Shown: positions 2,119-55,680, counted from the first letter of the stretch. The stretch: DNA of 64,000 nucleotides from Adineta vaga (GCA_021613535.1 CP075492.1:14119769-14183768), one strand, 5' to 3'. The notes: generated from the letters alone by a model not told the origin. Translations and numbers: made by a program.

Positions 2119-4671
2119 ATGATATCTTTTGCTTGTATATTACTTATGTTGATAATTATGCTGTACGATTTACATAGTACGGTTACTTATTCAATGAGTA
2201 ATTTTGCATCAGAAAATTTAACTAAAATTAATCCTCGTTATGGAAGAGTCGACAATCCGAATGTTGCTCTCAAAGATGATTGTGCATTGCGAGCTTTTAC
2301 CATTGAAATGGCTGGTTATATAGCACCATCATTTTGGAAAAATAATTGGACGGCACTTAGTGAAAGTGCCTTTCAAATGAATGAATGTAATGGAACGAGT
2401 TATCATACCTCTAGATCGTCTAAAGCTCGGCAACCATTTCGAACGCCAGAAAGAATAAAAACAAATGTTTGTTATCGCTCGGTATTTGTAAATGGTGAAT
2501 CAGGTGATGATCGATCGAATGGAACATTCGAAAAGCCACTGAAAACGATACAAGCAGCTGTATCGTTGACACGAACTCTTCGCATTGCTTACGGTAGAAA
2601 CAATACAATGTGCATTATCCTGCGAGTAGGAACGTATTATTTGGGCACGAATGCTACTTCTTCATCGAGTAGTCAAATTGGTGCAATTGCATTAACAAGC
2701 GATGATAGTAATCTCGTGATTGAAAACTATCAAAATGAGCGTGTCGTAGTAAGCGGTGGTACTTTATTGCAATTACAATGGTCTGTTTATCAGAAAACAT
2801 CGACTGGTAGTACCATTATGAAAGCTCGAATACCAGCATATGTTGATCTCAATCAGTTTAATGAATTATATATCGATGGGAAAAGAGCTATTGTAGCTAA
2901 ATATCCTAATGGTGATCCTTCTACTCAAGGTCTGTATGCTAAAAACCCGGGATTTTGTTTCGAATGGCAAAAATGGTGGGGTCCTAGTTTCAATCGAACC
3001 GTAGAACTTCATGTACAAGAACCTTATCGCAATGGTACAGTATTCACAAACTTTCAACTTGGTATTGGTGGTGGTGCTTCTGTCTTTAATCCACCTACTA
3101 ATTTTTGGAGTACGGCTTCACCACCTGCAGGTGACAATTATGTCACGACTCGTGGTATTACTGTGAATAAAGACACATTGCCTCGTATAGCTAATTGGAC
3201 TAAACCAACGAATGGTATTGTACATACTTTTCAAGGAGAATATTGGGGTAGTTGGATATTTGAAATAGCATCGGTGAATAGCACTGAATATACGATTATG
3301 TTTGGTCGAGGAGGATTTCAAGAAGCGCGTGGTTTAAGTTGGGGTGGAGCATTCTATGTTGCGAATATATTCGAAGAACTCGATTCACCTAACGAATGGT
3401 TTCTAGACAAAGATACTCGTACTCTCTTTTTTATGCCCAATGAAACGATGCCAGAGACATTTATAGCCAGTCAAATTCCTTGTCTCATCTCTTTGCGTGG
3501 CAATAGTATTAATGATCCTATCCAGAATGTTTGGATACAAGGTTTGATCCTTTCAGAAACAACTAATACATATATGAGAGACTACATGGTACCGGGTGGT
3601 GGTGATTGGGCCGTTCATCGTGGTGGTACTATATATTTAACCAACACGAAAGATATTACTCTTGCACACAATTTATTTACACAATTAGGTAGCAATGGTG
3701 TCGCTTTAATTGATTATAATGATGGTACTTCTATTATTATGAATGAATTTGTCTGGTTGGCTGATTCAGCTATTATTCTTGTTGGTAGTACAAATGGAAT
3801 CGATGGTTTTAGTGTGGCTAGTCAACCTGCCAATACACTTATCCAATCAAATCTAATACATGAGACAGGCATCTATGTAAAACAATCATCTCCAATATTA
3901 ATTGCTGTAAGTAGAAGCGTGTCTATTATTGGTAATCTTATGTTCAATATACCGCGAGCAGCCATCAATATCAATGATGGCTTCTATGGTAATCATACAC
4001 TGAGTTGGAATGTGATGTTTAATACTGTACGAGAAACAAGTGATCATGGACCTATCAATACATGGGATCGTCAACCATTTTTGAGTGATGCTTCGCAATC
4101 TGGTATACCTTCACTATGGCAACATTACAGTTATATTCATCATAATACTATCTTCAATAATTATAATGCTTTATGGCCTATTGATCATGATGATGGCAGT
4201 TGTTTTTATGAAGATTCTTATAATTTTCATGTTTATGGTGGAAAGAAAAATTTTCTCGGTCACTCAAAATCAGATCATCATCAAATTTATGTCTATTCAG
4301 ATATGAATAAAGGTGATTATGGTAGTAATGTATGTCTAGGTTTTTATGCACCTAGACGAGGTTTTAGTGGTTGGGATGAAATTTGGGTTCAAAATACGTG
4401 CATACTTTACAAAATACCAATTCCTTACATTATCGGTAATTGTGAAACAACCGATCTATTTGTACCGTATTTAGCAAATAATAAAATATATATTCCAAAT
4501 GGTACTGAAGTGATATTTACATGTAATATTAATGGTACAAGTACAAAACTTAATTTAGAACAATGGCAATCATATGGAGTAGATATTGGTACTAGTATTT
4601 CTTCGACACCTGATGTTCAAACAATTATTGAATGGGGTCGTGAAATGTTGCAACCAACAACAACAGAGTAA
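2119..4671 (+). CDS. secreted right-handed parallel beta-helix (pectate-lyase-fold, PbH1-repeat) protein, 850 aa, single exon
   Basis: ATG at 2119 and TAA at 4669-4671. There is a hydrophobic N-terminus (MISFACILLMLIIMLY). PbH1-like repeats are present (NLFTQLGSNGVALIDYNDGTSIIMNEFVWLADSAIILVGSTNG; IHETGIYV…IIGNLMFN). Many N-x-S/T sites occur. It is a paralogous fold to the gene at 52964..54431. Confidence 0.75.
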   Translation: MISFACILLMLIIMLYDLHSTVTYSMSNFASENLTKINPRYGRVDNPNVALKDDCALRAFTIEMAGYIAPSFWKNNWTALSESAFQMNECNGTSYHTSRSSKARQPFRTPERIKTNVCYRSVFVNGESGDDRSNGTFEKPLKTIQAAVSLTRTLRIAYGRNNTMCIILRVGTYYLGTNATSSSSSQIGAIALTSDDSNLVIENYQNERVVVSGGTLLQLQWSVYQKTSTGSTIMKARIPAYVDLNQFNELYIDGKRAIVAKYPNGDPSTQGLYAKNPGFCFEWQKWWGPSFNRTVELHVQEPYRNGTVFTNFQLGIGGGASVFNPPTNFWSTASPPAGDNYVTTRGITVNKDTLPRIANWTKPTNGIVHTFQGEYWGSWIFEIASVNSTEYTIMFGRGGFQEARGLSWGGAFYVANIFEELDSPNEWFLDKDTRTLFFMPNETMPETFIASQIPCLISLRGNSINDPIQNVWIQGLILSETTNTYMRDYMVPGGGDWAVHRGGTIYLTNTKDITLAHNLFTQLGSNGVALIDYNDGTSIIMNEFVWLADSAIILVGSTNGIDGFSVASQPANTLIQSNLIHETGIYVKQSSPILIAVSRSVSIIGNLMFNIPRAAININDGFYGNHTLSWNVMFNTVRETSDHGPINTWDRQPFLSDASQSGIPSLWQHYSYIHHNTIFNNYNALWPIDHDDGSCFYEDSYNFHVYGGKKNFLGHSKSDHHQIYVYSDMNKGDYGSNVCLGFYAPRRGFSGWDEIWVQNTCILYKIPIPYIIGNCETTDLFVPYLANNKIYIPNGTEVIFTCNINGTSTKLNLEQWQSYGVDIGTSISSTPDVQTIIEWGREMLQPTTTE

Positions 4672-5048
4672 TATCTATTGAAGGTGGATGTTCATGTGGA
4701 CTCTATGTGAGTTATTCATACACCTACCATTAGGCATCTTTATGATAATTATACTTAATCAAAAGAGAAGAACCAATGGAACACATCGTAAACAATTTTG
4801 CGATTTAGCTTTTCGTAGTTTTTGAATTTGCCCATATTTTTAGATCGTTTTTGAACTACAGTAGTATAATTTTATAAATATTATAAAAATCAAACGTTGC
4901 GATATTTTATACAGTAATCAACGAAAATAAATTCACTTTCACATCATATAATCTTATTACTACGAGCAGTGACTATCGATAAAGTGCCTTATTTTTCAAC
5001 TAGTGCTGCTACGATAATCGATTAGCTCGTCATTTCGTCACATCAAGA

Positions 5049-5101
5049 ATCGCTTCGAGGGTGTGAACGAGGGTATAGTTTCTTCACATATATACGCTCA
5101 C
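5049..5101. repeat. short hairpin-forming element, copy 1 (gagggtgtg…cttc…ctcactctccccc)
   Basis: Alignable with the copies at 13836..13888, 38691..38740 and 54961..55010. They share GAGG(G/A)TGTGGGTG, GAATGAGGGT-like and CTTCTT blocks plus an inverted CACCCACACC-type arm. Confidence 0.35.
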
Positions 5102-5301
5102 TCTCCCCCGTGAAATATTTTGTATATTTAAAAGTATACATTTAGTAGGAGAGGAAAAAGAACATGTGCAAATGAATTCTAAAAACATTTCAACTTTTTG
5201 ATCGTTATGTTGTTCAAAAACCTTCATAATTTTCAGTTCATTAAATTATAGTAGAACTCGTATAAAAAATTTGTTTATTACAAGATTCGTGTTTCGTCAG
5301 A

Positions 5302-7103
5302 TTAAGACAAAGTAACAGAAACCATCCGACTTGCTACAGTTCCAGTTACTTTCAAACAAAATCGAATCGAATAACTTTGTCCGGTTGTTACGAAAAACGA
5401 CTGACTGATTTCATCAGCAACGTTTGCACACCAACTGTCTACACGGTAAGAACCAGTACGAGCTAAACCGCCCATAACTTGACTACCACTAGAGAATTGA
5501 CAAGCTCCATTTGGTATTGATCTTGTCCAACCAGGTGAGAAAGAGCCGTATTCAAAACCACCGTTGACTAATAATTCTGTAGTTCCATTAGTTACTGTTA
5601 CGTCATCTAAATACCAATGATCAATATTACTTCGAAATTGAAATACGAGGTTAACAGAGCCTGTAGTACTAGCTATCCATTCAGCATAACAACAAGTATA
5701 TGAAGTAAATGAAAATGTTGTTGAAGAAAATAAACTGGAAGATCCCACATTTATAGGAGTACCACATGGATTTGCAGTAGTAGTTGCTATTAAACAAGAA
5801 TGATGGAAAAATAAAGTAAAAGTTTTCAAAAAAAAATGACTAATTTACTCGCTATTTTACTAACTACAGAAAATAAACAATAGAAAGATTTTTAAGAAAA
5901 ACAATTCAATCATTTATCCGAATATTTACCAGAGTCTTTTTTTTCTACTGAATTTTGCTGTCTCTTTAATATTATCAGGTACTAAAATTGTTGACTTCAT
6001 TTTATCATAATGTAGATAATCTATGTTAGTCCTATATTTCTGGAATATGAATACGTAGAAATCATCATTATCACTAATTAAAAAGCTTCGACAACTAAGT
6101 TAAAATATGAACAGATGGGAAAGTGACATTTTCTCATGTAAATGTAAATAGATATCAACGACTTACATGTTGATGAAGTGCTGCTAGTCGATGATGATGT
6201 TGATGTGGAACTAGTAGTTGTTACGGATGCTATGAATTATAGAAATCTTCGGATGTAGATATATCAATTTGAAAAAGAAATATATACTTGTTGTTGTAGT
6301 AACAGTAGAAGTGGTCTCTGTTGTAGTAGTTGAAGTAGTTTCCGATGTGGTAGTAGATGTGCTCGTTGTTGTCGTGGTAGTTGCAGAGGTCGTGGTAGTC
6401 GTTGTTTCTGATGTAGTGCTTGTTGCTTTGTAATGATAAAAATAATAAATATAATTTTTTAGATGAAAATTTATAATTACTTGTGCTTGATGTAGTTGTC
6501 GTAACTGTTGTGATTGTCCTCTTGACAAAGAGACCTGCAAGTATACCAGCAAGACCAATGGCGAGTAATATAGCAATGATTATTGATGCAAGACAACAAT
6601 ATCGTGATCGAAGTCGACGGACTTTACGATTAAGATTAGGGTTCATATTTTCTTTCGTGCCTGTTTGGTTGAATCTGATGGTTTTAACTTTACTAAAACT
6701 TGATTTTGATCGCTTATGTTTGAGTCGTTTTGTTTTTCGTAATTGTTGTTCTTTAGACTGAGCACTACTATTGGAAAACGATTTTTGCGTGTTTGTCGAT
6801 GTTTTAGTTTCGCATATCGATCTGGATGGTATTGACAATGGAAGAGTCTGTAGAGGCAATATATAATGATTAATTGTAAACATTCATATTCAATAGTAAA
6901 ACAACTCCTACTTTGGATGAATCCATGAATTGATTAGAATTTCGTGGTAATATATTTGCATGAAAATCAAACTTCTTGTTCTGATATGATGATTGTAATC
7001 CAGAATTGATCGATGATGGTACAGATTGAGTTAGAAGAGGCGAAAATAACTTCACTCTATCTTGGCTCGATGGAAGTATTCGAGGCACTATACTTTCAAC
7101 CAT
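5302..7103 (-). CDS. multi-exon gene: single-pass TM protein with Thr/Ser-rich mucin-like stalk and C-terminal CBM4_9 (galactose-binding-like) domain
   Basis: Proposed exons on the minus strand: ~7103..6912 (ATG at 7103; donor AAA|GTAGGA), 6847..6481 (basic cytoplasmic tail KHKRSKSS, TM CCLASIIIAILLAIGLAGILAGLFV, donor CAA|GTAATT), 6425..6288 (TTSETTTTTTSATTTTTTSTSTTTSETT), 6229..6167 (all Ser/Thr codons, donor T|GTAAGT) and 5786..5302. All splice phases are consistent. Introns are 64, 55, 58 and ~380 bp. The terminal 'ORF' 5302..5829 has no ATG (the listed start is TTG) but carries the CBM_4_9 signature LLVNGGFEYGSFSPGW. Confidence 0.55.
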
Positions 7104-8176
7104 AGAAGTTTTTGCATTCAACTAAAAATATACGTTTAAATGCTTTTAAAATAACTTGATATATCTAAGAAAGATGCGTAGAAAAAACAAGCACTTTCTT
7201 TCTGCTCAGTGTTTACATTACAGATTATTCATAAGAACTTAAAACACTATCTACTTGAATTATACTAGGTATAGCAATCTTACTTGTCTAAGAACGCTGG
7301 CATGAATAGTGGACGTCGTTGTTGTGATTTAATTCGTTTCACACGTGTTACAGTAACATGACTCTTAAATAAAAAACAAGATGTTTTGAAAACATATACA
7401 ACAATTAATCCTACTTTGTCTTGATATGACCAGCGTTGAGATCTCGATTTCAAAGATTGCTCTGTTTTCATCATGTAGTTCGATTTTATTCTTCTAATCA
7501 AAATATTCTACTCACATATCATTCTGAAATCAAAGAAACTGAATATTTTTATCATTAAAAATCGACTAAGAATGGAATTCAATTTGACATAAATAGGTTT
7601 CTCCATGGAATATATAAGTCTTATTGTCATTAATGTAATTCATATTTGTTATTGTTTGGTATGTTCTCGAAATAAAGGTAAAGAACATTTCTTAATATCG
7701 AATTTGCGTTTCTTCTCTACAAATTATAGAAAAAGAATAATTGTATGGCAAGCCCTGTTTTTTGTTGGAAAAATAAAGTAATAAGAGAGGAAACATTTGC
7801 AAAAATTATTTTCGATATTGTAAGATTTCGTACATTGAATAATCATCGACAGCTAATAAAGAAAATCTTAAGTAGAAAGAAAAACAATGATTGTATAGTC
7901 TGCCGTATTTTTATTTTAAGTCAATAAAGAGTATTGATTATAGTTATATATTTATAGAGTTATATTATGTCTTAATTTTTTTTGCTATGAAATTAACCTC
8001 TCATTTTATTTGTGAGAGTCATTTGTAATCAAATTATTTAATGGGAAAGTCACACGTGTCATTGCATGTGATATACATATATATATCTGAAACTCTTTAT
8101 GTCAATGACTATTAGGATTATAATTATATTATTATGTTATGTGCAGTATAAAAATCAACGTTAAAAATTAGAAAGT

Positions 8177-10735
8177 TTAAAAACGCGTGTGAATTGTCTC
8201 TCCATCTTGTGTTTTGAAATAATCAGGTGGTGAAGAATTGATCTCGATGTTCATTTTCTCATTGAATCTTGCGCCATTCATTGACATTCGAACATGCGGA
8301 TAAGCTGCTTGAGTTTGTTGTATTTCAGCCATTGCAATACCAAGAGAATCCTGTGGAATCCATACAATTGGTTTCGGTTCTCGTAATGCTGGATTCATAT
8401 ATGCATTTTCCATTGTATTATCATAAAAATCCACCACAGCATCATTCATATCAGAAACACTACTAATATCATCAGTCGATCGGCAATGCGTCAATACTTT
8501 TATTGCTGTTTTTGTTACGGGAAATCGGCTCGCATGAGGATTTTCCAATCGTACATATTCTTCAGCATCAACTGGTAAATAATACGTCAGTGGATCGAAA
8601 CTAGAACGCATTGTCATGTACACAATAACAGTCAATACAATCAATATGCACATGAGAATACCTTGAGGAATAGCGGCTTGTCTACCGGATTCATTTTGTA
8701 CTAGAAAAAATAATGCTGCAAGCATGATTTCCATTAAATAAACGCCAGTAAATGATTGATAAATAGCTCGCGGAAAAGCAAGACCACCAGAATCATTGGG
8801 AAAGTCGTTCACATAGAACATTGTATAAGTATAGGCAATATAATATAAAGCAAATGCAATACCAGATATGATGAGCATAAGAGGAGCAACAATCGAATAA
8901 ACTAAAGTAATGACAATAAAATTTGTAAAAACGGGAAATATTGTTCCCCAATCGAGACTTGAAAGTGTAAAATATCGTCGCCATTTTTTTCGTGGTGTAT
9001 TATCGAATAATTTTCCAAGAAGATAAAATGAAATCAATGTTACAACTTGTAATAAAACACCACAAGCAATACTTAATCCTTGTAAGGCAATAAAACTAAA
9101 GAAGAAATTACTTGCCGTTGGAATATTTGCAGCAAGTATTGTTGCAGCACTCGGCGGATTTTGAAAAATATCAACAATAACACTGGAAACACTACTAGAT
9201 ATAGTAACAAATAAGAAAACATGCGTGACTTGAAAAACAAAATAGGATCCTTGTACATAACGATCAATTGCATCCGTAGTAGGTTTGCCAGATAATTTCG
9301 CCAATAATTTCAATATGATCGGTAGTATTGACATTAAAATAGCTAATAGAACAGTTGGTAGAAGACCAGTAACTAGACCAAGAAGTGATGTTGGTAATTT
9401 ATAAATAACTTGAAGAAATGTTACTTTATCTGTAAGATACGTAATATTAGAGAGTATACCGACAAATGTAACAGGAATAGCCCAGAAGACGATAAGAGCG
9501 GCTGTTGCTGCTAACATAATAAGTTTTCTTAGTTTTTGTTCATAATAGCTTAATTTTAAATTTGACCAAACGATATTCAATGGTTTAATATCAATAAATC
9601 GAGGTGACATCGCTAAAGGAATGGACGCTGCTACACTTTGAACAGCCATATGAGCTGCTATTTGTGTATGAAATTGAATAAATGCTGAATTAATCGGTTT
9701 ATAATTGTTCAAACGTGTTTTTTCTGTTTCAATTTCTGTATTTAATTGTGAGATGGTCGTTTTACAGTATGTCAGAGCATCGACTTTCTTACCACAGCAG
9801 AGAGATGAAAGTATAGGAATTATTCCAATTCGCATTGTTGGTCGTTTGCTTTGTGGAATATAATGATCTATAATCTCTTCTTCATTAATCGTAAGAGTTT
9901 GTTCAGAATTGATCGTGTTTTTCTTTTTCTTCTGTTTAGCATCGTTTTTCAACGCTGTTTTAAGTAATTTACATTCAATTGCTTCGAGTTTTTCGACTAA
10001 TTTCATACGTTGAGCTACTTTATCAGGAAGATTTTCAAGATTTCGATTGAGCCATATATATTTTACTCCACCGGGAAATTGATTAAAAATTCGAAAGAGT
10101 ATATCGGTATCCAAATATACTTTTGGTATTGCAGTAACAAGAATCGTCGTTGCACTAGCACGAGATTGATATATCGAACTTCGTAATAATGCTTGACGTT
10201 TTTCTACAAAAACTTTCATTTCAATATAAAGAAGAAAGAGATATGCACCAAGAAAAACATATGCAAGTACCAATGGAGCTATGTATCGTAAAGAATGACG
10301 TGATGGTATATTACCAAATGTTAGAATATCGAGTCCTGTTTTTCCATATGCTTTACCTTTTCCATCAATTGTATAAATTGGAAATAGAATGATTGCTATA
10401 AGAACGAATGAACTTAGGAAGAAGATAGCATGAATGTAGAGATAACGTGCGAAGAAATAAGCATCAAGACCTGAAGTACGAATAAGATCTTCTTTTGGCA
10501 TCTTTAATAGAGCGGGTAACCAACCATAAGGTGTACGAGGCAAAGATTCCACACGTCGTTTTTCATCTCCTAAATATGTTTTTGGTTCATAGATACGTTT
10601 AAATATTGTTCTAATAGCAACGAATAAAACGACTTCAATTGCACCAATTGTAGCAGAAGCAATGAGTGTTGTAAAAAATTGTGAGAGTGAATAACCCTGC
10701 ATGCTTTGAATAGCTTTGGTTGTATTACTTGCCAT
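8177..10735 (-). CDS. CSC1/OSCA/TMEM63-family (DUF221) stress-gated calcium-permeable cation channel, ~852 aa, single exon
   Basis: The real ATG is at 10735-10733 (MASNTTKAIQ…); the ORF-track start at 10789 is TTG. The N-terminus matches the family (…FVAIRTIFKRIYEPKTY…) and the long multi-TM C-terminal half is typical of RSN1_7TM/PHM7. Confidence 0.8.
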   Translation of the reverse strand: MASNTTKAIQSMQGYSLSQFFTTLIASATIGAIEVVLFVAIRTIFKRIYEPKTYLGDEKRRVESLPRTPYGWLPALLKMPKEDLIRTSGLDAYFFARYLYIHAIFFLSSFVLIAIILFPIYTIDGKGKAYGKTGLDILTFGNIPSRHSLRYIAPLVLAYVFLGAYLFLLYIEMKVFVEKRQALLRSSIYQSRASATTILVTAIPKVYLDTDILFRIFNQFPGGVKYIWLNRNLENLPDKVAQRMKLVEKLEAIECKLLKTALKNDAKQKKKKNTINSEQTLTINEEEIIDHYIPQSKRPTMRIGIIPILSSLCCGKKVDALTYCKTTISQLNTEIETEKTRLNNYKPINSAFIQFHTQIAAHMAVQSVAASIPLAMSPRFIDIKPLNIVWSNLKLSYYEQKLRKLIMLAATAALIVFWAIPVTFVGILSNITYLTDKVTFLQVIYKLPTSLLGLVTGLLPTVLLAILMSILPIILKLLAKLSGKPTTDAIDRYVQGSYFVFQVTHVFLFVTISSSVSSVIVDIFQNPPSAATILAANIPTASNFFFSFIALQGLSIACGVLLQVVTLISFYLLGKLFDNTPRKKWRRYFTLSSLDWGTIFPVFTNFIVITLVYSIVAPLMLIISGIAFALYYIAYTYTMFYVNDFPNDSGGLAFPRAIYQSFTGVYLMEIMLAALFFLVQNESGRQAAIPQGILMCILIVLTVIVYMTMRSSFDPLTYYLPVDAEEYVRLENPHASRFPVTKTAIKVLTHCRSTDDISSVSDMNDAVVDFYDNTMENAYMNPALREPKPIVWIPQDSLGIAMAEIQQTQAAYPHVRMSMNGARFNEKMNIEINSSPPDYFKTQDGETIHTRF

Positions 10736-11510
10736 TTTCAGATAAATATTCGACAGAGTGATGTGAAGAAATAATACTAAAAACGACAAAACTATGAGTA
10801 TATGAATTATATAATATACGAAGTATATCAGTAGGTGTTTGCATGAAAATATGAAAGAGAATCGTTTTGAAGACTATATTCTTTGATACAGAATGGTAAA
10901 AAAAATAATAAACGTTGCCACGATATGTTGAAGGAATGGTAATTTTTTTATGTTGATCTATGAAGCGACAGTATTCTACAACGTGAGAAGAGAATCGAAA
11001 CAGCCAGAAAAAAGATGGTAATGGAGGAAAAAATGATACACATGCCTTCAAGTGACTGACTCATTTATTCAATGAGTAATTGTCAAACATATACGAATGA
11101 ATGTGAAAAGATTAATCGTATGAAATCTTTTACAAAAAAGAAAATTCAAAGAGAATACAAAAATGTTACGATTTCATCGTTATATGATTTGATCATATCA
11201 TAAACTTTATTTTGTATTCTGTTTTATTGACATTAAACACTCGCATATATACATATATATATATATATAGCAATTAACATTGATAATGAAATATCTCTAT
11301 AAATATGTTTTGAAAAATGAATAAGTATTCATTAGTTTGATTGTACGATTGTTTTATGGGATTACGTTGAATAACTATGAAAAGTTTTTTTTCCACTGAG
11401 TGACTATTTTAATGAAAGGAATCAACAACAACATCATGCAGTTTTACTTATTTTGAATACAATCATTCATTTGATTATTCTACTTCGAAGAAATAACTCA
11501 CGACTAAACT
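10736..11510. promoter_or_regulatory. divergent intergenic/promoter region between the CSC1-like (-) and GPCR (+) genes; contains a (TA)n-rich tract at ~11245..11269
   Basis: It lies between two divergently oriented start codons, is AT-rich and contains TA repeats. No experimental support. Confidence 0.3.
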
Positions 11511-12476
11511 ATGCCAGTGACCATTTTACCATCGATACAACGAGAAATCATTCGATATGGTGTTAGCATATATCTTATATTCGGTCTTGTGGGTAATCTC
11601 TGTAATTGTGTAATGTTTACACGAAATTCATATCGCCGCAGTCCTAGTTCAATTTATCTTCTTTCACTTTCAATATTTTCTATAATTTATCTTATTTGGA
11701 CATTTGCTCCACTTTTCTATACACTTAATTATATAGATCCTCAAACTCAATCAATAATCTATTGTAAAGTACGACAATATGGTAGTCATACTCTTAGTCT
11801 TCATATTCGTTATGCAGTTGTACTTGCATGTTTTGACCGATTTCTTGTTACACGAACAAATGTTCGTATCCGTTCATTGAGCACCATTAAAACAGCAAGA
11901 ATTCTTACTTGTATCATGTGTTTTGTATGTTTATTAATTGCTTTACATATGCCTGTTGAAATGACTATCAATACTAGTAGAGTCTGTGGAATGTTCGGCA
12001 TGTACAAGTTATCGTATGCAATTTATCAAATTATAATTTTTACTTTAACACCACCTATCTTAATGATTCTATTCAGTATTTTTACGATTCATGATCTTCA
12101 GCAACGACATAATATAAATCAAAGTCATGCAAGAAAAAGAGATCGTCATCTTGCATATATGGTTATTGCGGAAGTAGCAATAAATATCATTTCATCAGTT
12201 CCATATGCAGCTAATCTTCTCTATGGTGCATTGACATATTATGTAACAAATAAAAGTACAGAAAGAGCAGAGATTGAAGCATTTTTAACTTTTATTACTC
12301 AATTTTTTATCTATTTCTTGGGCGTTGTTCCATTTTATCTATTCATATTAGTATCAAAACCATTTCGAGATGAATTCATGGATTTTCTTATCAATAATTG
12401 GTACAAATATATTTTACGACAAACACGAGTGGTTCCAACACATGAATTAAACGTTCTAGCTACAAACAATCATTGA
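11511..12476 (+). CDS. class-A-like orphan GPCR (7TM), 321 aa
   Basis: ATG at 11511. TM1 GLVGNLCNCVMFTR (GN…R), a DRY-like ACFDRFLVT at the end of TM3 and seven hydrophobic segments. TM7 …PFYLFILVSKPFRDEF. Confidence 0.7.
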   Translation: MPVTILPSIQREIIRYGVSIYLIFGLVGNLCNCVMFTRNSYRRSPSSIYLLSLSIFSIIYLIWTFAPLFYTLNYIDPQTQSIIYCKVRQYGSHTLSLHIRYAVVLACFDRFLVTRTNVRIRSLSTIKTARILTCIMCFVCLLIALHMPVEMTINTSRVCGMFGMYKLSYAIYQIIIFTLTPPILMILFSIFTIHDLQQRHNINQSHARKRDRHLAYMVIAEVAINIISSVPYAANLLYGALTYYVTNKSTERAEIEAFLTFITQFFIYFLGVVPFYLFILVSKPFRDEFMDFLINNWYKYILRQTRVVPTHELNVLATNNH

Positions 12477-12488
12477 ACAATATAATAT

Positions 12489-13520: not shown

Positions 13521-13835
13521 TTCTACTGATTATATCTTAGCAGCTTTATCTTAGTTTATAGTTCTTTTCTGTGAATTGTCAGAAGAAAATGAAGAAAGAA
13601 ATTCATTTATAAATGACGCATTTTGTGCTGTCAAAATCAGATTTACTATAAATATTACGAAGAGCGTTATCTTGTCATATTTCAGATCGTGATAAGTTCC
13701 AACTTCAGATAAACAACGTTTCTGACAGATCTAATTAGTTTTACAAGAGACACGATATATTTCCTTCGTTATTGAAGTTAGCGTAAACAAACATTTTCTC
13801 TAAATCTACAGTTTTGTTCATATCCTGAGGATGTG

Positions 13836-38668: not shown

Positions 38669-38690
38669 CTAAATACATCATTATTTGAGG

Positions 38691-48330: not shown

Positions 48331-48668
48331 TCTTGTTTTTTCTTATATGAAATTTTATCAAATCTTGTTATATCGATATTTATTATTTAGATTAGATTTT
48401 ACGTAGTGACATATGAATATTAAATTTCAAGTACGTCATTAGAAATGAATTCTTACTAACAACACAAATGATAAAAATAGAATTGATCAATAATGACTAA
48501 TCCATAAGAGTAATAAACTTTCTGTGTTAGTTTGAAATCGAATTTGATAAGTAAAATTCTTCAATCTTGGAACATTGTCTGTTAACCATTCAAATATTTG
48601 TTCATTATTCATTCGTACATCAGTTGAATCATATTCTACTACCATACTATGTACTTTCAACATAGCAT

Positions 48669-50150
48669 TTAATAATAGGGAACATCATGAAGAGATCTAA
48701 CAGATACGTTTAATTTTTCGAGGTTAATTGAAAATATTTTGATAAGATTTATAATCGCTTGACATTTGTTTTGTTCAATTTTCGATAGCGATTGTGATAT
48801 ATGTAAACATTTGATTTGTTTTGTTAGTAATGAACATACATGTTGATTGGTAAAATCTCCAGTTATTTCTCTCAATGTTTGCCAAGGAACTTGTAATGAA
48901 TGAAGATTAATTGAATATGTTAAAATTTCAGAAAAGAATTGTTCCGAAGATATAGTATTACTTTTTTCAATAGTTAAATGCTTGATTTGAGAAAGATCAA
49001 TAAAACCAATTAATGGTATAAAAACAAATAAATTTTGAATGGTCAATGAATTAAGGTTGGGAAAATAATATTGTTGGAGAATATGTGAATGATACTCACA
49101 ATTAATAACTAAACGTAATTTTTTAATGGTTTGATACACATCTTTTTTCAGTTTAGTTAAAGATTGTATTGATGTAGATAAATAAAATTCTTCATCACAA
49201 TATGGTAATGTATAGAGATGAATATTTTTTATAGTATGAAATGCCGAATTCATCGTCTCATCATAATCACAATGAATAAACCATTGATGTTGATCTGACC
49301 AGAATGATGTTTGAAATGGAGCAAACAATTGTATAGTATTAACACTATCTAAACTTGGATGAATTTTAAAATGAAAATATTTTAAACTAGGTAAATGTCT
49401 TCGAATAAGATTTTCCCATCGATCACCATTAACTAATCGAAATCCTTTTTTTGCACAAACTGTTAACACTTCCAATTTGGACATACAAGCAAATAGTGTG
49501 TCAAGTTCATCAAATGTAACATTAGATTTTTCTGGAAGTTTTAATATTAATTGACAAATATTCAGATCCATTGGATTCATACTGAATATATCACCTGTGT
49601 TTGATACTTCAGCAAACAATTGAACTTCTATTTTTCTTAACATTGGCGTATGTACTAACCATTGATGCAGATTTCGGACTGGACATAAACCTAAAGTTAA
49701 ATATTTTAATGGTAATTCTGTGGTTATTGGTGACAGTTGATGAGAAGATTGAATGGAAAGTGAAGTTAACTTTGGAAGATAATGAAGTTTTCGAGCGATT
49801 TTAATCCAATCTAGTTCTGATATTTCATTTAATGTTAATAATTTGAGATTAATACATCGTCGAATATAAAATGATCGAAAGAATAAATGAATTTGTCGAA
49901 CTGTATCATTTGTATCAGATAATATTAATGATTGAATTTGTTCAGGAGAAATCGATTGACGAACAAAATCAAATTTTGATTTCGGCCAAGATTGAAAATT
50001 CAAATTATATTTATCATAATTATTTAAAAGTTTATTGATACGTTTATTAATTCCTTGAAATGCATAGAGAATGTCATAAATTGTCAAATACTCAAATACT
50101 TCGTAAAGTAATTCATTTGGAAAACGATCAAACATGGTTCGCATCGGCAT
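48669..50150 (-). CDS. F-box domain protein with LRR-like C-terminal region, 493 aa
   Basis: ATG at 50150. F-box: FDRFPNELLYEVFEYLTIYDILYAFQGINKRINKLL. It is a paralog of the partial gene at 22..507. Confidence 0.7.
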   Translation of the reverse strand: MPMRTMFDRFPNELLYEVFEYLTIYDILYAFQGINKRINKLLNNYDKYNLNFQSWPKSKFDFVRQSISPEQIQSLILSDTNDTVRQIHLFFRSFYIRRCINLKLLTLNEISELDWIKIARKLHYLPKLTSLSIQSSHQLSPITTELPLKYLTLGLCPVRNLHQWLVHTPMLRKIEVQLFAEVSNTGDIFSMNPMDLNICQLILKLPEKSNVTFDELDTLFACMSKLEVLTVCAKKGFRLVNGDRWENLIRRHLPSLKYFHFKIHPSLDSVNTIQLFAPFQTSFWSDQHQWFIHCDYDETMNSAFHTIKNIHLYTLPYCDEEFYLSTSIQSLTKLKKDVYQTIKKLRLVINCEYHSHILQQYYFPNLNSLTIQNLFVFIPLIGFIDLSQIKHLTIEKSNTISSEQFFSEILTYSINLHSLQVPWQTLREITGDFTNQHVCSLLTKQIKCLHISQSLSKIEQNKCQAIINLIKIFSINLEKLNVSVRSLHDVPYY

Positions 50151-50695
50151 CTTAATGTAAAAGAATTACGAATATCTTATATTTTTCAAAAGTGATGTGA
50201 AATTACTCTTGATATTAGTTAGTCACCATGAGCAACAGTCTCGCTACTGTTCTATTCAATGTTTCAAACTAATCAATAGTAAATATGATAGAGGGCACAT
50301 TGTACCGGAATGGAAATGCATTGATTTCGTGTTTTATTCTCTTCCAGAAGACAAATATAGAACATTAGTAGGCAATTGCACATTTCATATTTGGAGGTTT
50401 GTTCATCCATTTAAAAGTCGTGGTCAGGTCATATCGTGAATGTATTAAAGACGAGTTTGTTGAGTTGAATTAAATTACAAATGAGACGTGAAGGAGAAAA
50501 GATCAGATTATTGAGAAAGACAAATTTTTTATAAAGAAGTTCATTTGCTAACACAGACTTCTATATATGCATTATAGTCTCACTGTAGAATTTAAAAATA
50601 ATCTTTCATTCAATTCATATTTATTATTCTGTATGTTAGAAGATATTTTACGATTACAATGTAATATTTTTAAATAATATTCATTGAATTGAAAA

Positions 50696-51076
50696 TTATC
50701 GTGGTAGGACAATAGTAGCTTTTGTATTAGCACCACCTGAGATTTGAATAGATGCACCAGTATAATAACTAGTATCTAATCCAACCGTTTGAATATTAAT
50801 TGAAATTTGACGACCGATGATAGCATCACAGTAATCATCTAATGTTAAATCAACTAATTTAGCATCACATTGAACAGGATAAGATTCACGACAAGTGCCC
50901 ATTTTCAATTCAAATTTATGTTCTGCACAGCCACCACTATATTGAAGATTAATATCGATGGTTTTTGTTTGTTTATTATAACGCGCATCTTTAATAAAAG
51001 GCATATATTCTGCATTTATTATTGAAAAACAGAGCAGAAAAACAGTCACGACACTTTTTTGTAATTGATAAGCCAT
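50696..51076 (-). CDS. small secreted Cys-containing protein, ~126 aa, unknown family
   Basis: The real ATG is at 51076 (MAYQLQKSVVTVFLLCFSIINA signal-peptide-like); the ORF-track start at 51088 is TTG. Confidence 0.4.
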   Translation of the reverse strand: MAYQLQKSVVTVFLLCFSIINAEYMPFIKDARYNKQTKTIDINLQYSGGCAEHKFELKMGTCRESYPVQCDAKLVDLTLDDYCDAIIGRQISINIQTVGLDTSYYTGASIQISGGANTKATIVLPR

Positions 51077-51583
51077 GAGATAGAGCAAAAAAAACGATAA
51101 ATGAAGCTTGATTGTAATTCCTTATTTTTATATATTGATCCTCACCAGATGCAAACTTGAATAATACAAAAGAAAAAAGTATTTTTTATTTTATACCTTC
51201 TTTCTTTTTCGTTCGCCAATCGAATGATCGAATGTATGTATTGTAACACGTGATTTTTCGTTTCTTCCAATTTATAACGTCGTTGAAGTGTAATTGATCG
51301 ATATGAGTCATACGAAATTCAACAGGTGAATATATGAAAGAAGTCGAACGTTCAAAGTAATCTAGCTTATCTTCGTCTGTAAAAAAAGAATTAGTCTAGA
51401 GGATGGGTGTGCATGTGCCTGTTTTGCAAATCAAAACTGAATACGTTTAAAAAATGTTGATAAAATAGAAGATATCTGAAAGAAGAAAGAAAATAAAAGA
51501 TACCATATTGTTGATGACAAGTATAAGTAAGCAACGAATATATTCTCACTTCTCTCTTAGAAAAGAACCATTTTCAAATAACT

Positions 51584-52511
51584 ATGTTAAATACAACAAA
51601 GGATTCATTATTTATGGCTTATTATCCATTAACTCTAGTCATTGTTGGTACTATATTAAATCTTTTAACATTCATTGTACTTTGTCGACCAATATTTCGT
51701 GATACAATAAAAAGACAACCTGTTATTCATTATATGCGTACAATAGCAATCTTTGATATTCTGATGGTATATAGATGGAATCTTGATCATTATCTTTCAG
51801 AATTGTTCATGGTTATATTCTTTTAACATATTCAATAGCGTCATGTAAGATTTTTGGTTTTATGAATTATTTTGCATGTCAATCATCAGCTTGGCTTCGA
51901 GTATTCATTTGTTTGGATCGATATTTATCTGCTAATCGTCTTCATCGAACATGGTTTAGCCGTCAAAAAAATGTTTTAATCATCATTATTTCAGTGATTA
52001 CAATTATAATTTTATTTAATTTTCATTTCTTTATATTTACATGTTACTATAGATCTAATGGTACTATCAATCCTAATGCTCAATTATATCAGGTTTATCC
52101 ACTTTGGGATTATATTAATCTCAGTGTATACCATTTATTCTTATGGTTACATTTAATAGTGGTGTAATTTATCATTTATTTCATCGTAAACAATCACAGA
52201 TGATTCAACATTCACGTATACCTTATCAAACAATCTCAATAACATTGTTAATTACAACATTTCTCTTTTTAATTATGACAATTCCAGCAACGATTGTGGT
52301 AGCATTCTTTTTCACAATACCAACATCTACATTAGCTAAAATATTAGGTTCGATACTTTATACATATCATATAATATCCTTTTCACTTTATTTTCGTACA
52401 TTTAAAGAATTTCGTCAAGAATGTATCATGATGATTACATGTAGAAAAAATCATCATCGAATTAGACCAATTTTGACAACGATTCGTGCAGAAAAAATGC
52501 TCAATAAATGA
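51584..52511 (+). pseudogene. GPCR paralog (same family as 11511 and 12489) split over three frames; probable pseudogene
   Basis: ATG at 51584. TM3 SIASCKIFGFMNYFACQSSAWLRVFICLDRYLSANRL (DRY), TM5 CIPFILMVTFNSGVIYHLFHRK and TM7 ISFSLYFRTFKEFRQE are present. The frame switch at ~51795 has no phase-compatible GT-AG, so it is a true frameshift. The second switch at ~52120 could be a 32-bp GT..AG interval (52093..52124), but that is shorter than every other intron in the window. Confidence 0.55.
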
Positions 52512-52963
52512 ACGGTTGAATATACGCCTTCGGTCTATTTCTTGTCCAATATATAAATAAAAATATTTACGTGAATAAGCATGACTTCTCTCCATTTAAT
52601 TAAAGGAGGAAATCTTAAAAAAATCTGTTCTTCATGTTATTATTTGCGAAAAAGTGTTGGAATAAAGAAAAGCATATTGTACATACGTAGAACGTTAGTA
52701 ATAAAAAAAACACAAATCTTATTCGTTTGAAGAAATAAAAGTGACATGACTATTTACTTTTACTTTAATTCACAACTACAAGTAAGTGATATTTAAAGGT
52801 TTGATACATTGATGTGATACTATTCAGTATAACTAAGTTTTATGATGATTTTACATATGCAATTGATTTGTTTCGTCAATGTTCTACTCTGGATTCAAAT
52901 AAGTATGTGTCAGACACTATATGTATGTTCTTAGATGAAACCTTTTCTATGTTTATCACATAG

Positions 52964-54431
52964 CAGCAGGCAAGTCTTATTATGTAACAAAATCTGGTAA
53001 GGATAGTAATGCGGGAACGACTGAAGCAACTGCTTGGTTTACCATACAAAAGGCAGCAAATTCAGCAACACCTGGTTCGACTGTTTATATTGGTGCTGGC
53101 ATTTATTATGAAGCAGTCACAGTAAACGTGCAAGGCAATGCAATAGACGGTCCGATTACTTTCACTAATTTAACACCAAATAAAATACCTGTTATTTCTG
53201 GCAAACAAACGACTATTGCATCTCCTGATGGAACTTTAAATGTAATTTATATTCAAGATAAGAGCTACTTACGTTTTATCAATCTTGAATTAACAGAATT
53301 AAAAGCAGTTGAATGTAGTGGAGTAAGAATTGTGGGCAGTGGAACCAATATTGGTGAGTTTTTTTTTAAAATTTTGATTTCTCTGATAGAAATCGATATT
53401 CTATTCTACCCTTGTAGAACTACGAAATTTACACATTTATAATATCCGTGGTGGAGATGAAAGTGGTGGTGCAATGGGAATTACTGTCTATAATAATAAT
53501 CAAAAAACAAGTCGTCGTCAACTGATCATTGACAATTGTACACTTCATGATTGTGATCCAGCATGGAGTGAAGCATTGACATTGAATGGCAATATTGAAC
53601 AATTTCAAGTGACGAATAATCGAGTATACAATATGAACAATATTGGAATTGATTTTATTGGTAAGTGTAGTTTCATGCATCATCAGAGATATTTTGATTC
53701 CCTTTTCGAATAGCTGGCGAAAATTGGTTAAGCGGTTTAGGAACTCGATCAGGTCTATGTGCTAATAACACTGTCTGGAATATTCATTCAGTTTATGACT
53801 CTAGTGCAGCTGGCATCTACGTTGACGGCGCTTCCAATATAACTTTAGAAGGAAATGAAGTTCATCATTCAGATATGGGAATAGAAGTAGGTGCCGAAAA
53901 TAAAGGACAAGTAGCAACAAAAATGCTTGTTCGAAGTAATTATCTTCATCATAATGATAAATTTGGATTAGCCTTTGGAGGATACGATTCTCAGTAAGTC
54001 ATCCAAACATTCTTTTGCAAAATAAAACGAATATATTGATGATTTATAGACGAGGTCGGGTTACAAATAGTTTATTCATATCTAATCGACTTGAACAAAA
54101 CGATATGATGCATACAGGTGGTGGAGAAATATCTATTTCATTTGCTTCTGACAATACAGTTCTTCGCAATATCGTGAAGCCAAATGATCAAAATATCATT
54201 CTTCTTGCAAATCAAGATGGTGGTTTAAATAATCAATTCGATTATCAAATATATTATCCAAATGGACAAGGTGCAACACAAGAAAAACTTATTTTCTATT
54301 GGGGAAACACAGAGTGTGATGGTTTACGTGCATTTCAACAAAATAGCAAACAAGAAATGCATGCTCAAACCAATGCAGTGAAACGTGCCTTCGGAATAAA
54401 AGGTTTTTTTCCACGAAAGTTTTATTTCTAA
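52964..54431 (+). CDS. secreted right-handed beta-helix (DUF1565 / pectate-lyase-fold) protein, four mapped exons; 5' signal exon not resolved
   Basis: Exons ~52964..53353, 53418..53660, 53714..53993 and 54050..54431. Introns are 64, 53 and 56 bp with donors GTGAGT, GTAAGT and GTAAGT. The phases 1/1/2 are all consistent. The N-terminal domain SYYVTKSGKDSNAGTTEATAWFTIQKAANSATPGSTVYIGAGIYYEAVTV is typical of bacterial-type beta-helix proteins. A candidate ATG at 52746 is followed by the donor CAA|GTAAGT, but its phase does not fit. Confidence 0.7.
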
Positions 54432-54960
54432 TGAAACAACATACAAATACATATACTATAATTTAAATGCGATATAGTTAGATCCAAATAAAAATAAAGC
54501 TCCGTTTGAATCAATATACGCCTTGTAATTTTAACGAAAAATATAATGATATGGTCGCGAAGTATCATTTGCTGACAAATTTACTTCACATATCTTTCAA
54601 TGATTCAGAATACGAAATCACGACTGTTTTCTTTTCTTAAATGCGTAAAGTGCATTAATTGCGTTGAAAGGTTAGTATAACACAATGTCTGAAATGCTTT
54701 TTAACTGTGTAATCGAAAACGAAGTAAAATCAGTGAAGAAAAATTAAAATTAACTAAATATTTTTTTTTGGATATCTGCCTTGGCAACGTTGATAGTATA
54801 TAACGAAGAAGAAAACTGTGCTGGACACAATTCGTATTTACTGACTTGATCATGTTTATTCAAGTAAAGATTATATGTCTCATGAATGCACTTTTATGGA
54901 CTCAGACATGTAAGCATGAAAAATTCTATGATAATATATAGGTTTTTGCTGAATTTCTGT

Positions 54961-55010
54961 TATGTAGTGGGTGTGGGTGTATAACTTCTTCTCTTACCCA
55001 CACCCTCAAA
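54961..55010. repeat. hairpin (GTGGGTGTGGGTG … CACCCACACCC) at the junction between the beta-helix gene and its truncated copy; element copy 3
   Basis: agtgggtgtgggtgtataacttcttctcttacccacaccctc. The arms are (TGTGGG)2-like and the loop contains CTTCTT, as in the other copies. Confidence 0.45.
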
Positions 55011-55680
55011 GTGACGAATAATCGAGTATAGAATATAAATAATATTGGAATTGATTTCATTGGTAGGTTCTGGACCGTTTCTTTAGTTTAAACTTAACTA
55101 TCTTTTTTTTTATTCGCTGGAGAAAGTTGAGCCGGTGGTTTAGGAACTCGACCTGGCTGATGTGGTAATAATACTGTTTGGAATATTCATTCAGTTTATG
55201 ACTCTAGTCCAGCTGGCATCTACATTGATGGGGCTTCCCGATATGACTTTAGAAGGCAATGAAGTTCGTCATTGAGATACGGGAATAGAATTAGGTGCAG
55301 AGAATAAAGGACAAAAAGCAATCCAACTGACTCTCAGATATAATTATGTTCATCGTAATGATAAATTTGGATTGGCTTTTGAAGGATATGATTCTAAGTA
55401 AATGAATAGATTTTTGTATGATAATGAAAATGATAATTTGATTTCGTAGACTCAGCCAAGTCATCAATCGTTTATTTGCCGATAATCGTCTTGAAGAAAA
55501 CGATGGTAATCATGCAATTGGTTTAAAAAATACATTTGATTATCAAGTGTATTATTCAAATGGACAAGGTGCAACACAAGCAGATCTTATATTCTCATGG
55601 GGAAACACTGAATATAATGGATTGAGTGCTTTTCAAAAGAAAACTAAACAAGAATCGCAAGCTCAAATTATTTCTGGTTA
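54990..55680 (+). pseudogene. truncated tandem duplicate of exons 3-5 of the beta-helix gene, with an in-frame stop
   Basis: It starts in mid exon 3 (…GTGACGAATAATCGAGTATAGAATATAAATAATATTGGAATTGATTTCATTGGTAGG), keeps the intron positions, and carries CGTCATTGAGATACGG where the parent has CATCATTCAGATATGG (a stop). Its 3' end is diverged. Confidence 0.7.

What the first reader, a model, noticed from the sequence alone, without database searches (positions are those of the whole stretch)
2119..55680. Two secreted beta-helix proteins of bacterial type, one freshly tandem-duplicated into a pseudogene
2119-4671 is a single 2.5-kb exon. 52964-54431 has four exons with three 53-64-bp introns. Both have PbH1-type right-handed beta-helix folds typical of bacterial and fungal polysaccharide lyases or hydrolases, which is unusual for animals. 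The second is followed, after a hairpin, by a partial copy (54990-55680). The copy keeps the intron positions but has an in-frame stop. So a horizontally acquired-looking gene has gained spliceosomal introns and is undergoing local duplication and decay.
Basis: partly seen in the sequence, partly recalled or inferred. Interest (0 to 1): 0.6.

Follow-up and report, generated by a model that had tools for sequence, protein, structure and literature searches.

The report
Rotifer beta-helix genes, old decayed copy
This stretch of the bdelloid rotifer Adineta vaga carries one beta-helix enzyme gene of ancient bacterial origin and one from a eukaryote-wide family, plus an old, decayed neighbouring copy whose internal deletion is sealed by telomere repeats; all of this is typical of bdelloid genomes.

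Summary
The window is Adineta vaga chromosomal DNA (gene 1 is 100% identical to I4U23_015378). Both genes exist and both are right-handed beta-helix proteins with hydrophobic N-termini.

Gene 2 has five exons, not four. Its nearest non-bdelloid relatives lie on bacterial contigs (about 47-49% identity). Its intron positions are shared with A. ricciae and Rotaria. It is therefore an ancient, fully domesticated bacterial acquisition.

Gene 1 is a GH141-like protein. Its nearest outside relatives are eukaryotic: sponges, Pigoraptor, Blastocystis (37-43% identity, full length). The best bacterial matches found are about 30% and partial. "Bacterial type" is not supported for gene 1.

The "fresh" duplicate is old. 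Exons are 80% identical and introns 51%. It is the positional orthologue of the third of three intact tandem copies in A. ricciae. It keeps exon 1 and intron 1, has an internal deletion of about 0.64 kb, four stops, a frameshift, a 102-nt deletion and a lost acceptor site.

The "hairpin" is a head-to-head pair of A. vaga telomere repeats (TGTGGG) exactly at the deletion junction. It is possibly a healed-break scar. Overall this is a good example of known bdelloid biology, with one interesting side observation.

The parts
2119..4671 (+). Gene 1: intronless ORF of 850 aa encoding a GH141-like right-handed beta-helix protein with a hydrophobic N-terminus (A. vaga I4U23_015378)
   Evidence: ORF. 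100% identity to the annotated protein. Family profile vs PDB: BT_1002 8e-38, 9rx2 2e-41. Foldseek vs BT_1002 1.6e-22. N-terminal hydrophobic stretch.
52842..52902 (+). Gene 2 exon 1 (new): Met plus signal-peptide-like MMILHMQLICFVNVLLWIQI. Ends in phase 1 and is followed by a 61-nt GTATGT..AG intron (52903-52963)
   Evidence: Splice/frame search. Homologous N-termini in P0122, P0123 and P0128. Same exon in A. ricciae copies.
52964..53353 (+). Gene 2 exon 2
53418..53660 (+). Gene 2 exon 3 (preceded by a 64-nt intron)
53714..53993 (+). Gene 2 exon 4 (preceded by a 53-nt intron)
54050..54431 (+). Gene 2 exon 5 including the stop codon (preceded by a 56-nt intron). The full product is 451 aa.
   Evidence: Exon model. 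Pfam Beta_helix.
54852..54909 (+). Pseudogene relic of exon 1 (MFIQVKIICLMNALLWTQT), followed by the relic of intron 1 (54910-54967)
   Evidence: Alignment to exon 1 and intron 1 of A. ricciae copy 3
54967..55008 (.). Junction filler: head-to-head telomeric repeats GTGGGTGTGGGTG - 16 nt - ACCCACACCC. It replaces about 0.64 kb (exon 2, intron 2 and the 5' part of exon 3).
   Evidence: The A. vaga telomere repeat is TGTGGG (PMC7943196; PMC8494291).
55009..55681 (+). Pseudogene remainder: 3' part of exon 3 (55009-55062), intron 3 relic (55063-55116, acceptor lost), exon 4 (55117-55397), intron 4 relic (55398-55449), exon 5 (55450-55681, with a 102-nt deletion). Four in-frame stops and a 1-nt insertion.
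   Evidence: Collinear with the 3' end of A. ricciae copy 3 and the downstream gene.
51589..52511 (+). Upstream flanking rhodopsin-type GPCR gene. It anchors the locus in animal DNA and in synteny with A. ricciae.
55754..57652 (-). Convergent downstream gene (two ORFs, weak GH99-like match), orthologous to the 588-aa A. ricciae gene. It anchors the right side of the array.

Best explanation
The window is ordinary chromosomal DNA of the bdelloid rotifer Adineta vaga.

Gene 2 (52842-54431, five exons, 451 aa) descends from a bacterial DUF1565 / Pel9A-like beta-helix gene. An early bdelloid ancestor took it up. It then gained a signal-peptide exon and four short spliceosomal introns, and it was amplified into a tandem array between a GPCR gene and a convergent GH99-like gene.

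A. ricciae still has three intact copies in that array. A. vaga has one intact copy (gene 2) and the wreck of the last copy (54852-55681). That copy stayed functional for a long time. It then lost about 0.64 kb internally, with the break sealed by head-to-head telomeric repeats. It also accumulated four stops, a frameshift, a 102-nt deletion and a dead splice acceptor.

Gene 1 (2119-4671, intronless, 850 aa) belongs to a very large bdelloid expansion of a GH141-like beta-helix family. That family's closest outside members are eukaryotic (sponges, a unicellular holozoan, Blastocystis and eukaryote-like metagenome contigs). Bacterial GH141-like proteins are distant cousins.

Both proteins most likely work as secreted glycan-cleaving enzymes. 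The beta-helix groove would bind a polysaccharide chain and conserved Asp/Glu residues would do the chemistry. Fold and homology are shown here. Secretion, substrate and catalysis are inferred.
For: - Identity of the organism.
- Gene models.
- Signal-peptide exon homology.
- Gene 2 homologues: bdelloids at 56-80% identity, then bacterial contigs at 42-49%. Those contigs are compact and intronless, with peptide deformylase, a P-type ATPase and aminotransferases as neighbours. One homologue is labelled as a Chlamydiota MAG.
- NJ bootstraps: 100/100 for bdelloid monophyly and 94/100 for the bdelloid plus bacterial-contig grouping.
- Intron positions are shared with A. ricciae and Rotaria.
- The A. 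ricciae array has three intact copies in the same gene neighbourhood. The alignment is collinear from the pseudogene 3' end into the downstream gene.
- Decay inventory of the copy, with exon identity 80% against intron identity 51%.
- Relics of exon 1 and intron 1, and the exact deletion junction.
- Gene 1: 5441 cluster representatives at E<=1e-3. Sponge, Pigoraptor and Blastocystis members. Eukaryote-like contigs for the nearest outgroups. Bit-score gap to bacterial genomes. NJ tree.
- GH141 link for gene 1.
- Fold of the gene 2 family.
- Background that about 8% of A. vaga genes are HGT candidates, some predating tetraploidisation: PMC8494291.
Against: - No expression or splicing data could be examined, so the gene 2 model (especially exon 1) rests on sequence and homology alone.
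- Gene 2 has no identical protein in the 5.8-billion-protein collection, so it appears unannotated. This could mean the annotators saw no support for it.
- The trees are distance-based NJ trees on limited, partly unlabelled samples.
- The bacterial genome scan for gene 1 used two exact peptide patterns and is not exhaustive.
- Many close gene 1 relatives are metagenomic sequences of unknown organism.
- Patchy eukaryotic distribution of gene 1 could still reflect several transfers rather than vertical descent.
- Catalytic residues were not mapped, and no signal-peptide predictor was available.
Confidence: 0.8

Rival explanations
1. One reading: gene 2 was recently duplicated in tandem and the new copy immediately became a pseudogene.
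For: The copy lies directly downstream in the same orientation, with the same intron positions.
Against: - Exon identity is only 79.7% and introns are essentially randomised at 51%. Third codon positions diverge most. This implies a long period as a selected gene.
- A. ricciae has intact copies at the same positions. The pseudogene 3' end is collinear with A. ricciae copy 3 and the downstream gene.
- The copy matches A. ricciae copy 3 about as well (73-83%) as it matches gene 2 (76-81%).
Confidence: 0.03
2. Gene 1, like gene 2, was acquired directly from bacteria by bdelloids.
For: - The fold and the profile homology point to the bacterial family GH141.
- Bacterial homologues exist in Acidobacteriota, Bacteroidota, Verrucomicrobiota and others.
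- The gene is intronless.
- The family is absent from most named animals in the hit lists.
Against: - Sponge (Ephydatia, Dysidea), Pigoraptor and Blastocystis proteins align over the full length at 35-42% identity. This includes an N-terminal Cys-containing region that is not covered by the bacterial matches.
- The best bacterial hits are about 30% identical over residues ~120-710.
- The nearest outgroups sit on eukaryote-like contigs carrying Arf, a cytochrome bc1 14-kDa subunit and kinases.
- Bacterial sequences form a separate clade in the NJ tree.
Confidence: 0.12
3. The beta-helix genes are bacterial or other contamination, or an assembly artefact.
For: The domain content of gene 2 looks foreign.
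Against: - GC content is uniformly about 31%.
- The genes are flanked by GPCR, P450, OSCA/TMEM63-like and VIT-VWA genes.
- Gene order is conserved over more than 13 kb with an independent A. ricciae assembly.
- Introns are GT-AG and their positions are conserved in Rotaria.
Confidence: 0.01
4. Sub-feature rival: the telomere-like hairpin at 54967-55008 is not a healed-break scar. It would instead be a copy or footprint of a small palindromic mobile element, or a fold-back repair product that happens to be telomere-like.
For: - A second hairpin at 13824-13884 has arms that pair beyond the telomeric part (CCTGAGG / CCTTCAGG).
- Both loops, and about 9 of 41 loops in bdelloid-like metagenome contigs, share a CTTCTCTTT-like motif, against 2 of 80 in high-GC contigs.
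Against: - Most loops are unrelated in sequence and length.
- The structure sits exactly at the two ends of a 0.64-kb deletion, not as a simple insertion.
- The orientation is the one expected if telomerase extended both broken 3' ends. No pair in the opposite order was seen.
- Telomeric repeats at deletion breakpoints have been reported in A. vaga lines (PMC13564844).
Confidence: 0.4

Closest known systems
Bdelloid rotifer horizontally acquired genes (Gladyshev et al. 2008; Flot et al. 2013; Simion et al. 2021, PMC8494291)
   Same: Gene 2 is a bacterial-type carbohydrate-enzyme-like gene sitting among animal genes. It has short acquired introns, is conserved across bdelloid genera, has a paralogue on another chromosome, and shows local amplification and decay. 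Short interstitial telomeric repeats lie nearby.
   Different: Nothing essential differs; this is another instance. Gene 1 would not pass a metazoan-versus-non-metazoan test now that sponge genomes are available.
CAZy family GH141 (founding member BT_1002 of Bacteroides thetaiotaomicron, PDB 5mqp; Pfam GH141_M PF21231)
   Same: Gene 1 shares the overall architecture: an N-terminal helix cap, an inserted domain and then parallel beta-helix repeats. Family profile E = 8e-38. Foldseek E = 1.6e-22, TM 0.62 on the target.
   Different: - Only about 15% identity.
- Gene 1 itself scores below the Pfam cut-off (19.7 vs 27 bits).
- It has extra N-terminal Cys-containing and C-terminal regions shared only with eukaryotic relatives.
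- Catalytic residues and activity are untested.
DUF1565 (PF07602) / Pel9A-like beta-helix (PF22842) / Beta_helix (PF13229) bacterial proteins; structural neighbours GH136 lacto-N-biosidase, PL9 lyase, GH120 xylosidase
   Same: Gene 2 passes Beta_helix. Its bacterial homologues at 45-49% identity pass DUF1565. The model is a single right-handed beta-helix. Top solved matches are glycoside hydrolases and polysaccharide lyases (E 4e-10 to 1e-7).
   Different: - Only 11-16% identity to any solved enzyme, so substrate and reaction type cannot be assigned.
- The rotifer version has a eukaryotic signal-peptide exon and introns.
Neotelomere formation and telomeric scars at break sites in A. vaga (PMC13564844). 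Short interstitial telomeric repeats inserted at repaired breaks in primates (Nergadze et al. 2004, recalled from memory).
   Same: Telomere hexamers sit exactly at the edges of a deletion.
   Different: Here two short arrays face each other (G-strand toward the junction on both sides) inside a gene, fixed in the reference genome. I found no description of this head-to-head form in the papers read.

Membership tests
Pfam Beta_helix PF13229 / parallel beta-helix (PbH1) repeat | Score above the curated cut-off (gene 2) | tested here: met
   49.6 bits against a cut-off of 25.9. TIGR03804: 19.9 against 19.45.
DUF1565 PF07602 | Score above the curated cut-off (gene 2 itself) | tested here: not met
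   Not reported at E<=0.1 for gene 2. Its bacterial homologues P0140 and P0145 pass with 26.9 and 30.3 bits against 20.3.
CAZy GH141 | Sequence match to the GH141 insertion domain above the Pfam cut-off (gene 1) | tested here: not met
   19.7 bits against 27. Many close paralogues carry a precomputed PF21231 hit.
CAZy GH141 | Homology to and fold of BT_1002 | tested here: met
   Family profile E = 8.3e-38. Foldseek E = 1.6e-22, TMt 0.62, 13 orders of magnitude ahead of the next family.
CAZy GH141 | Conservation of the catalytic acidic residues; glycosidase activity | not tested
   HMM alignments do not reach the catalytic region reliably. Invariant acidic motifs exist in the family (DHDDGS, NDG) but were not mapped onto BT_1002. 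Activity needs an experiment.
Bacterium-to-bdelloid horizontal transfer (gene 2) | Closest relatives outside the recipient clade are bacterial, and the recipient clade is nested among them | tested here: met
Bacterium-to-bdelloid horizontal transfer (gene 2) | Physical integration in host DNA (host neighbours, introns, synteny) | tested here: met
Bacterium-to-bdelloid horizontal transfer (gene 1) | Closest relatives outside bdelloids are bacterial | tested here: not met
   Sponges, Pigoraptor, Blastocystis and eukaryote-like contigs are closer than any bacterial genome hit
Secreted protein | Cleavable N-terminal signal peptide | tested here: inconclusive
   Hydrophobic N-termini in both proteins and in homologues. 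No signal-peptide predictor was available.
Recent tandem duplicate | Near-identity of copies including introns; absence from sister species | tested here: not met
   80% exon and 51% intron identity. An orthologous copy is present in A. ricciae.

The most novel reading that the evidence does not exclude
The head-to-head telomeric palindrome at 54967-55008 may be a fixed germline scar of a double-strand break inside a gene. In this reading, both broken ends were first capped by telomerase and then rejoined. The left end could have been seeded on a GGGT at the start of exon 2, as seen in the A. ricciae orthologue.

Such "double neotelomere" scars would then be a recurrent signature of break repair in bdelloids. 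Three observations point that way. A second hairpin lies about 0.3 kb beyond the last aligned base at the left edge of a 14.8-kb lineage-specific block at 13824-13884. At least 41 bdelloid-like (low-GC) metagenome contigs carry the same arrangement. None of those contigs shows the opposite order.
Probability: 0.35. Interest if true: 0.6.

Novelty: new member of a known kind. Interest (0 to 1): 0.35.

Why it matters
The locus is a clean, datable example of how a bacterial gene is domesticated in an animal. It gained a signal-peptide exon and introns before the Adineta-Rotaria split, was amplified in tandem, and then lost copies in one lineage.

It also shows that not every "bacterial-looking" beta-helix gene in bdelloids is a bacterial import. 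Gene 1 belongs to a large GH141-like family shared with sponges and protists. That changes how such genes should be scored in HGT screens.

The telomere-repeat junction inside the pseudogene would, if confirmed, be a natural fossil of the neotelomere-based break handling recently proposed for A. vaga.

Tried and rejected
I modelled the 80%-identical A. vaga paralogue P0122 instead.
- The locus of P0122 could not be fetched, so I could not check whether the paralogous chromosome also has a tandem array.
- tblastn of paralogues against the pseudogene did not identify its closest relative. Synteny did.
- The first bootstrap run reported 0/100. I had left one A. ricciae sequence (P0131) out of the bdelloid list. 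I repeated it correctly.
- The context of P0252 was uninformative.
- Telomere-like 8-mers at 51404 and 58807 are chance or homologous sequence, not insertions.
- I considered that the hairpin is a severely truncated Athena/Terminon insertion. Those elements are flanked by telomeric repeats in the same orientation (description in PMC6431247; the orientation argument is my inference). They therefore do not explain a head-to-head pair.
- Many high-GC hits in the metagenome scan are an unrelated bacterial palindrome.
- A literature search for bdelloid carbohydrate-enzyme HGT with tandem duplication gave nothing specific.
- NCBIfam gave no family for gene 1.


Full report
**What the window is.** The 850-aa ORF at 2119-4671 is 100% identical to "hypothetical protein I4U23_015378 [Adineta vaga]" on a 20.35-Mb record. 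GC content is about 31% throughout. Introns are 53-64 nt. The region carries rhodopsin-type GPCRs, a P450, an OSCA/TMEM63-like channel and a VIT-VWA protein next to foreign-looking single-exon genes. Two stretches (1-13522 and 48537-61447) are collinear with one A. ricciae contig. This is genuine bdelloid chromosomal DNA, not contamination.

**Gene 2.**
The first of them starts in phase 2 directly after an AG, so an upstream exon is needed.
- *The missing exon.* The only candidate with an ATG, an open frame, a good donor (GTATGT) and a bdelloid-sized intron (61 nt) is 52842-52902. It encodes MMILHMQLICFVNVLLWIQI. This matches the N-termini of annotated paralogues, for example P0122 ...LVSALLWTQTLAGKSYYVTKSG, and exon 1 of the A. 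ricciae copies.
- *Family and fold.* The 451-aa product passes Pfam Beta_helix and marginally passes the TIGR03804 repeat. An AlphaFold model of the 80%-identical A. vaga paralogue is a single right-handed beta-helix with pLDDT 93.8. Its best solved neighbours are GH136 lacto-N-biosidases, a PL9 lyase, GH120 xylosidase and PL6 lyases, at 11-16% identity.
- *What that allows.* A glycan-cleaving enzyme is likely, but the reaction and the substrate cannot be named.

**Origin of gene 2.**
- Homologues at 56-80% identity are all bdelloid (Adineta, Rotaria, Didymodactylos). The next tier, at 42-49%, is bacterial.
- The two best of these sit on compact contigs with peptide deformylase, a heavy-metal ATPase, an alcohol dehydrogenase and aminotransferases. 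One relative is labelled as a Chlamydiota MAG.
- In NJ bootstraps the bdelloid sequences are monophyletic (100/100) and group with these 14 bacterial-contig sequences (94/100).
- Intron positions (codons ~20, 150, 231, 324) are the same in the A. ricciae copies and in a Rotaria orthologue whose introns have very different lengths.
- The transfer and the intron gains therefore predate the split of Adinetidae and Philodinidae. This fits the known picture of about 8% HGT candidates in A. vaga, some of them ancient (PMC8494291).

**The downstream copy.**
- *Extent and divergence.* Homology to gene 2 runs from 55009 to about 55681. Exon identity is 79.7% and intron identity 51%. Identity by codon position is 80/84/74%. 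This is the pattern of two genes that both evolved under purifying selection for a long time, not of a new duplicate.
- *Comparison with A. ricciae.* The syntenic A. ricciae locus has GPCR, then three intact tandem beta-helix genes (443, 436 and 432 aa), then a convergent 588-aa gene. Window 55529-57576 aligns without a break to the 3' end of the third A. ricciae copy plus that downstream gene. The A. vaga pseudogene is therefore the positional orthologue of copy 3.
- *Not a 5' truncation.* 54852-54909 is a recognisable exon 1 (MFIQVKIICLMNALLWTQT, donor GTAAGC). 54910-54967 is intron 1 up to its AG.
- *The deletion.* Homology stops right after that acceptor and resumes in mid exon 3. About 0.64 kb was deleted internally.
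- *Further damage.* There are stops at 55029-31, 55128-30, 55158-60 and 55273-75, a 1-nt insertion at 55237, a 102-nt deletion in exon 5, and an AG-to-CG change at the intron-3 acceptor.
- *The middle copy.* A. vaga also lacks the middle A. ricciae copy. I cannot tell whether that is a loss in A. vaga or a gain in A. ricciae.

**The hairpin.**
- The 42 nt that replace the deleted segment read GTGGGTGTGGGTG-TATAACTTCTTCTCTT-ACCCACACCC-TCA. The stem is a perfect 10 bp (dG -10.6 kcal/mol, z -3.7).
- The arms are the A. vaga telomeric repeat TGTGGG (PMC7943196; PMC8494291). Telomere-like 12-mers occur 5 times in the window against 0.07 expected.
- The G-rich strand runs toward the junction on both sides. 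That is what two broken 3' ends extended by telomerase and then joined would look like.
- The A. ricciae orthologue has GGGT at the left breakpoint, which could have served as a seed for telomerase (inference).
- Telomeric repeats at deletion breakpoints, and transient neotelomeres that leave scars, were recently reported for A. vaga (PMC13564844).
- A second hairpin of the same kind lies at 13824-13884. It starts about 0.3 kb after the last base that aligns to A. ricciae (13522), near the left edge of a 14.8-kb block absent from A. ricciae.
- A metagenome scan found the same arrangement in at least 41 low-GC, bdelloid-like contigs, with mostly unrelated loops. No pair in the opposite order occurs in those 172 kb. 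That sample was selected for the pattern, so the bias is only suggestive.
- About nine loops, and both loops in the window, share a CTTCTCTTT-like motif. The second hairpin also pairs beyond the telomeric part. A small palindromic element or a fold-back repair product therefore remains a live alternative.

**Gene 1.**
- *Sequence-level signal.* Pfam gives only sub-threshold hits (GH141_M, DUF1565). A profile of the family matches GH141 BT_1002 at 8e-38 and an unnamed beta-helix structure (9rx2) at 2e-41.
- *Structure.* The AlphaFold model (pTM 0.83, pLDDT 76.5) matches BT_1002 at Foldseek E 1.6e-22. The next family is at 1e-9.
- *Size of the family.* It has 5441 representatives at E<=1e-3 in the 50%-clustered library. 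The top 120 hits in the 90%-clustered library are all bdelloid or unnamed, at 62-86% identity.
- *Nearest non-bdelloid relatives.* They are P0243 and P0249 (43% and 41%), on contigs with eukaryotic genes (Arf, cytochrome bc1 14-kDa subunit, kinases). Next come sponge proteins from chromosome-scale assemblies of Ephydatia muelleri and Dysidea avara (37-42%, 456-525 bits), Pigoraptor (462 bits) and Blastocystis.
- *Bacterial relatives.* The best bacterial genome matches found (Acidobacteriota, Bacteroidota, Verrucomicrobiota) reach 246 bits and about 30% identity over residues ~120-710 only. They form a separate clade in the NJ tree.
- *Shared N-terminal region.* The eukaryotic members share an N-terminal DC.L[RK] region and hydrophobic leaders.
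- *Conclusion for gene 1.* It is a member of a patchily distributed eukaryotic GH141-like family that expanded massively in bdelloids. A direct bacterial origin is not supported. Vertical descent with many losses and eukaryote-to-eukaryote transfer cannot be told apart here.
- *Annotation note.* The GenBank model starts at Met14 and cuts the hydrophobic N-terminus.

**Verdict.** The sequence features are real and the coordinates are nearly right. The beta-helix call is right for both genes. The HGT-plus-introns story holds for gene 2 only. "Fresh duplication" is wrong. Everything fits established bdelloid genome biology, so the main finding is a new example of a known kind. The telomere-repeat junction is the one element that deserves a genome-wide follow-up.

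Noticed in passing
window 13824-13884: A second hairpin with telomere-repeat-like arms (CCTGAGGATGTGGGTGAATGAGGG ... CTCACACCCACACCTTCAGG; dG -13.2 kcal/mol, z -3.4). It starts about 0.3 kb after the last base aligned to A. ricciae (13522), near the left edge of a ~14.8-kb block (13522-28346) that is absent from the syntenic A. ricciae contig.
   Followed up: partly
window 19598-25048: A 93-bp unit repeated 58.6 times (94% matches). The + strand is almost free of C (GC skew 0.92). The minus strand has open stretches of up to 774 codons built from a 31-aa S/Q/H/I-rich unit. I did not resolve whether this is a coding repeat or a satellite.
   Followed up: partly
window 38686-38703: A third short telomeric-repeat stretch (TGAGGGTGTGGGTGTGGC) with no inverted partner. 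Its context was not examined.
   Followed up: no
window 4660-8177: A 3.5-kb segment between gene 1 and the OSCA/TMEM63-like gene that is only ~0.2 kb in A. ricciae. It contains ORFs 5302-5829(-) and 6230-6883(-). ORF 5302-5829 has no Pfam match; ORF 6230-6883 was not scanned.
   Followed up: no
window 46114-48330(-), 36667-37632(+), 14368-15285(+), 55754-57652(-): Further foreign-looking genes without obvious introns: a pentapeptide-repeat protein, a questin-oxidase-like protein, an ADP-ribosyltransferase and a weakly GH99-like protein. The window is rich in HGT-candidate-type genes.
   Followed up: no
window 52842-54431: No identical protein to the five-exon gene 2 product exists in the 5.8-billion-protein collection. 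The best A. vaga hit is an 80%-identical paralogue on another chromosome. Gene 2 therefore appears to be missing from, or modelled differently in, the public annotation.
   Followed up: partly
loci L039, L052, L054, L059, L063 and others (metagenome, high GC): A recurrent bacterial palindrome, GTGGGTCAGGGTGTGGGT-CAACTTTG-ACCCACACCCTGACCCAC, turned up many times in the scan. It is unrelated to rotifers and looks like a conserved bacterial repeat or terminator-like element.
   Followed up: no
Ephydatia muelleri and Dysidea avara proteins P0420, P0427, P0441-P0446: Sponges carry multiple paralogues of the GH141-like family on chromosome-scale scaffolds; two of the Ephydatia genes have near-adjacent gene IDs. 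This animal distribution (sponges plus bdelloids) was not described in any of the papers read.
   Followed up: partly
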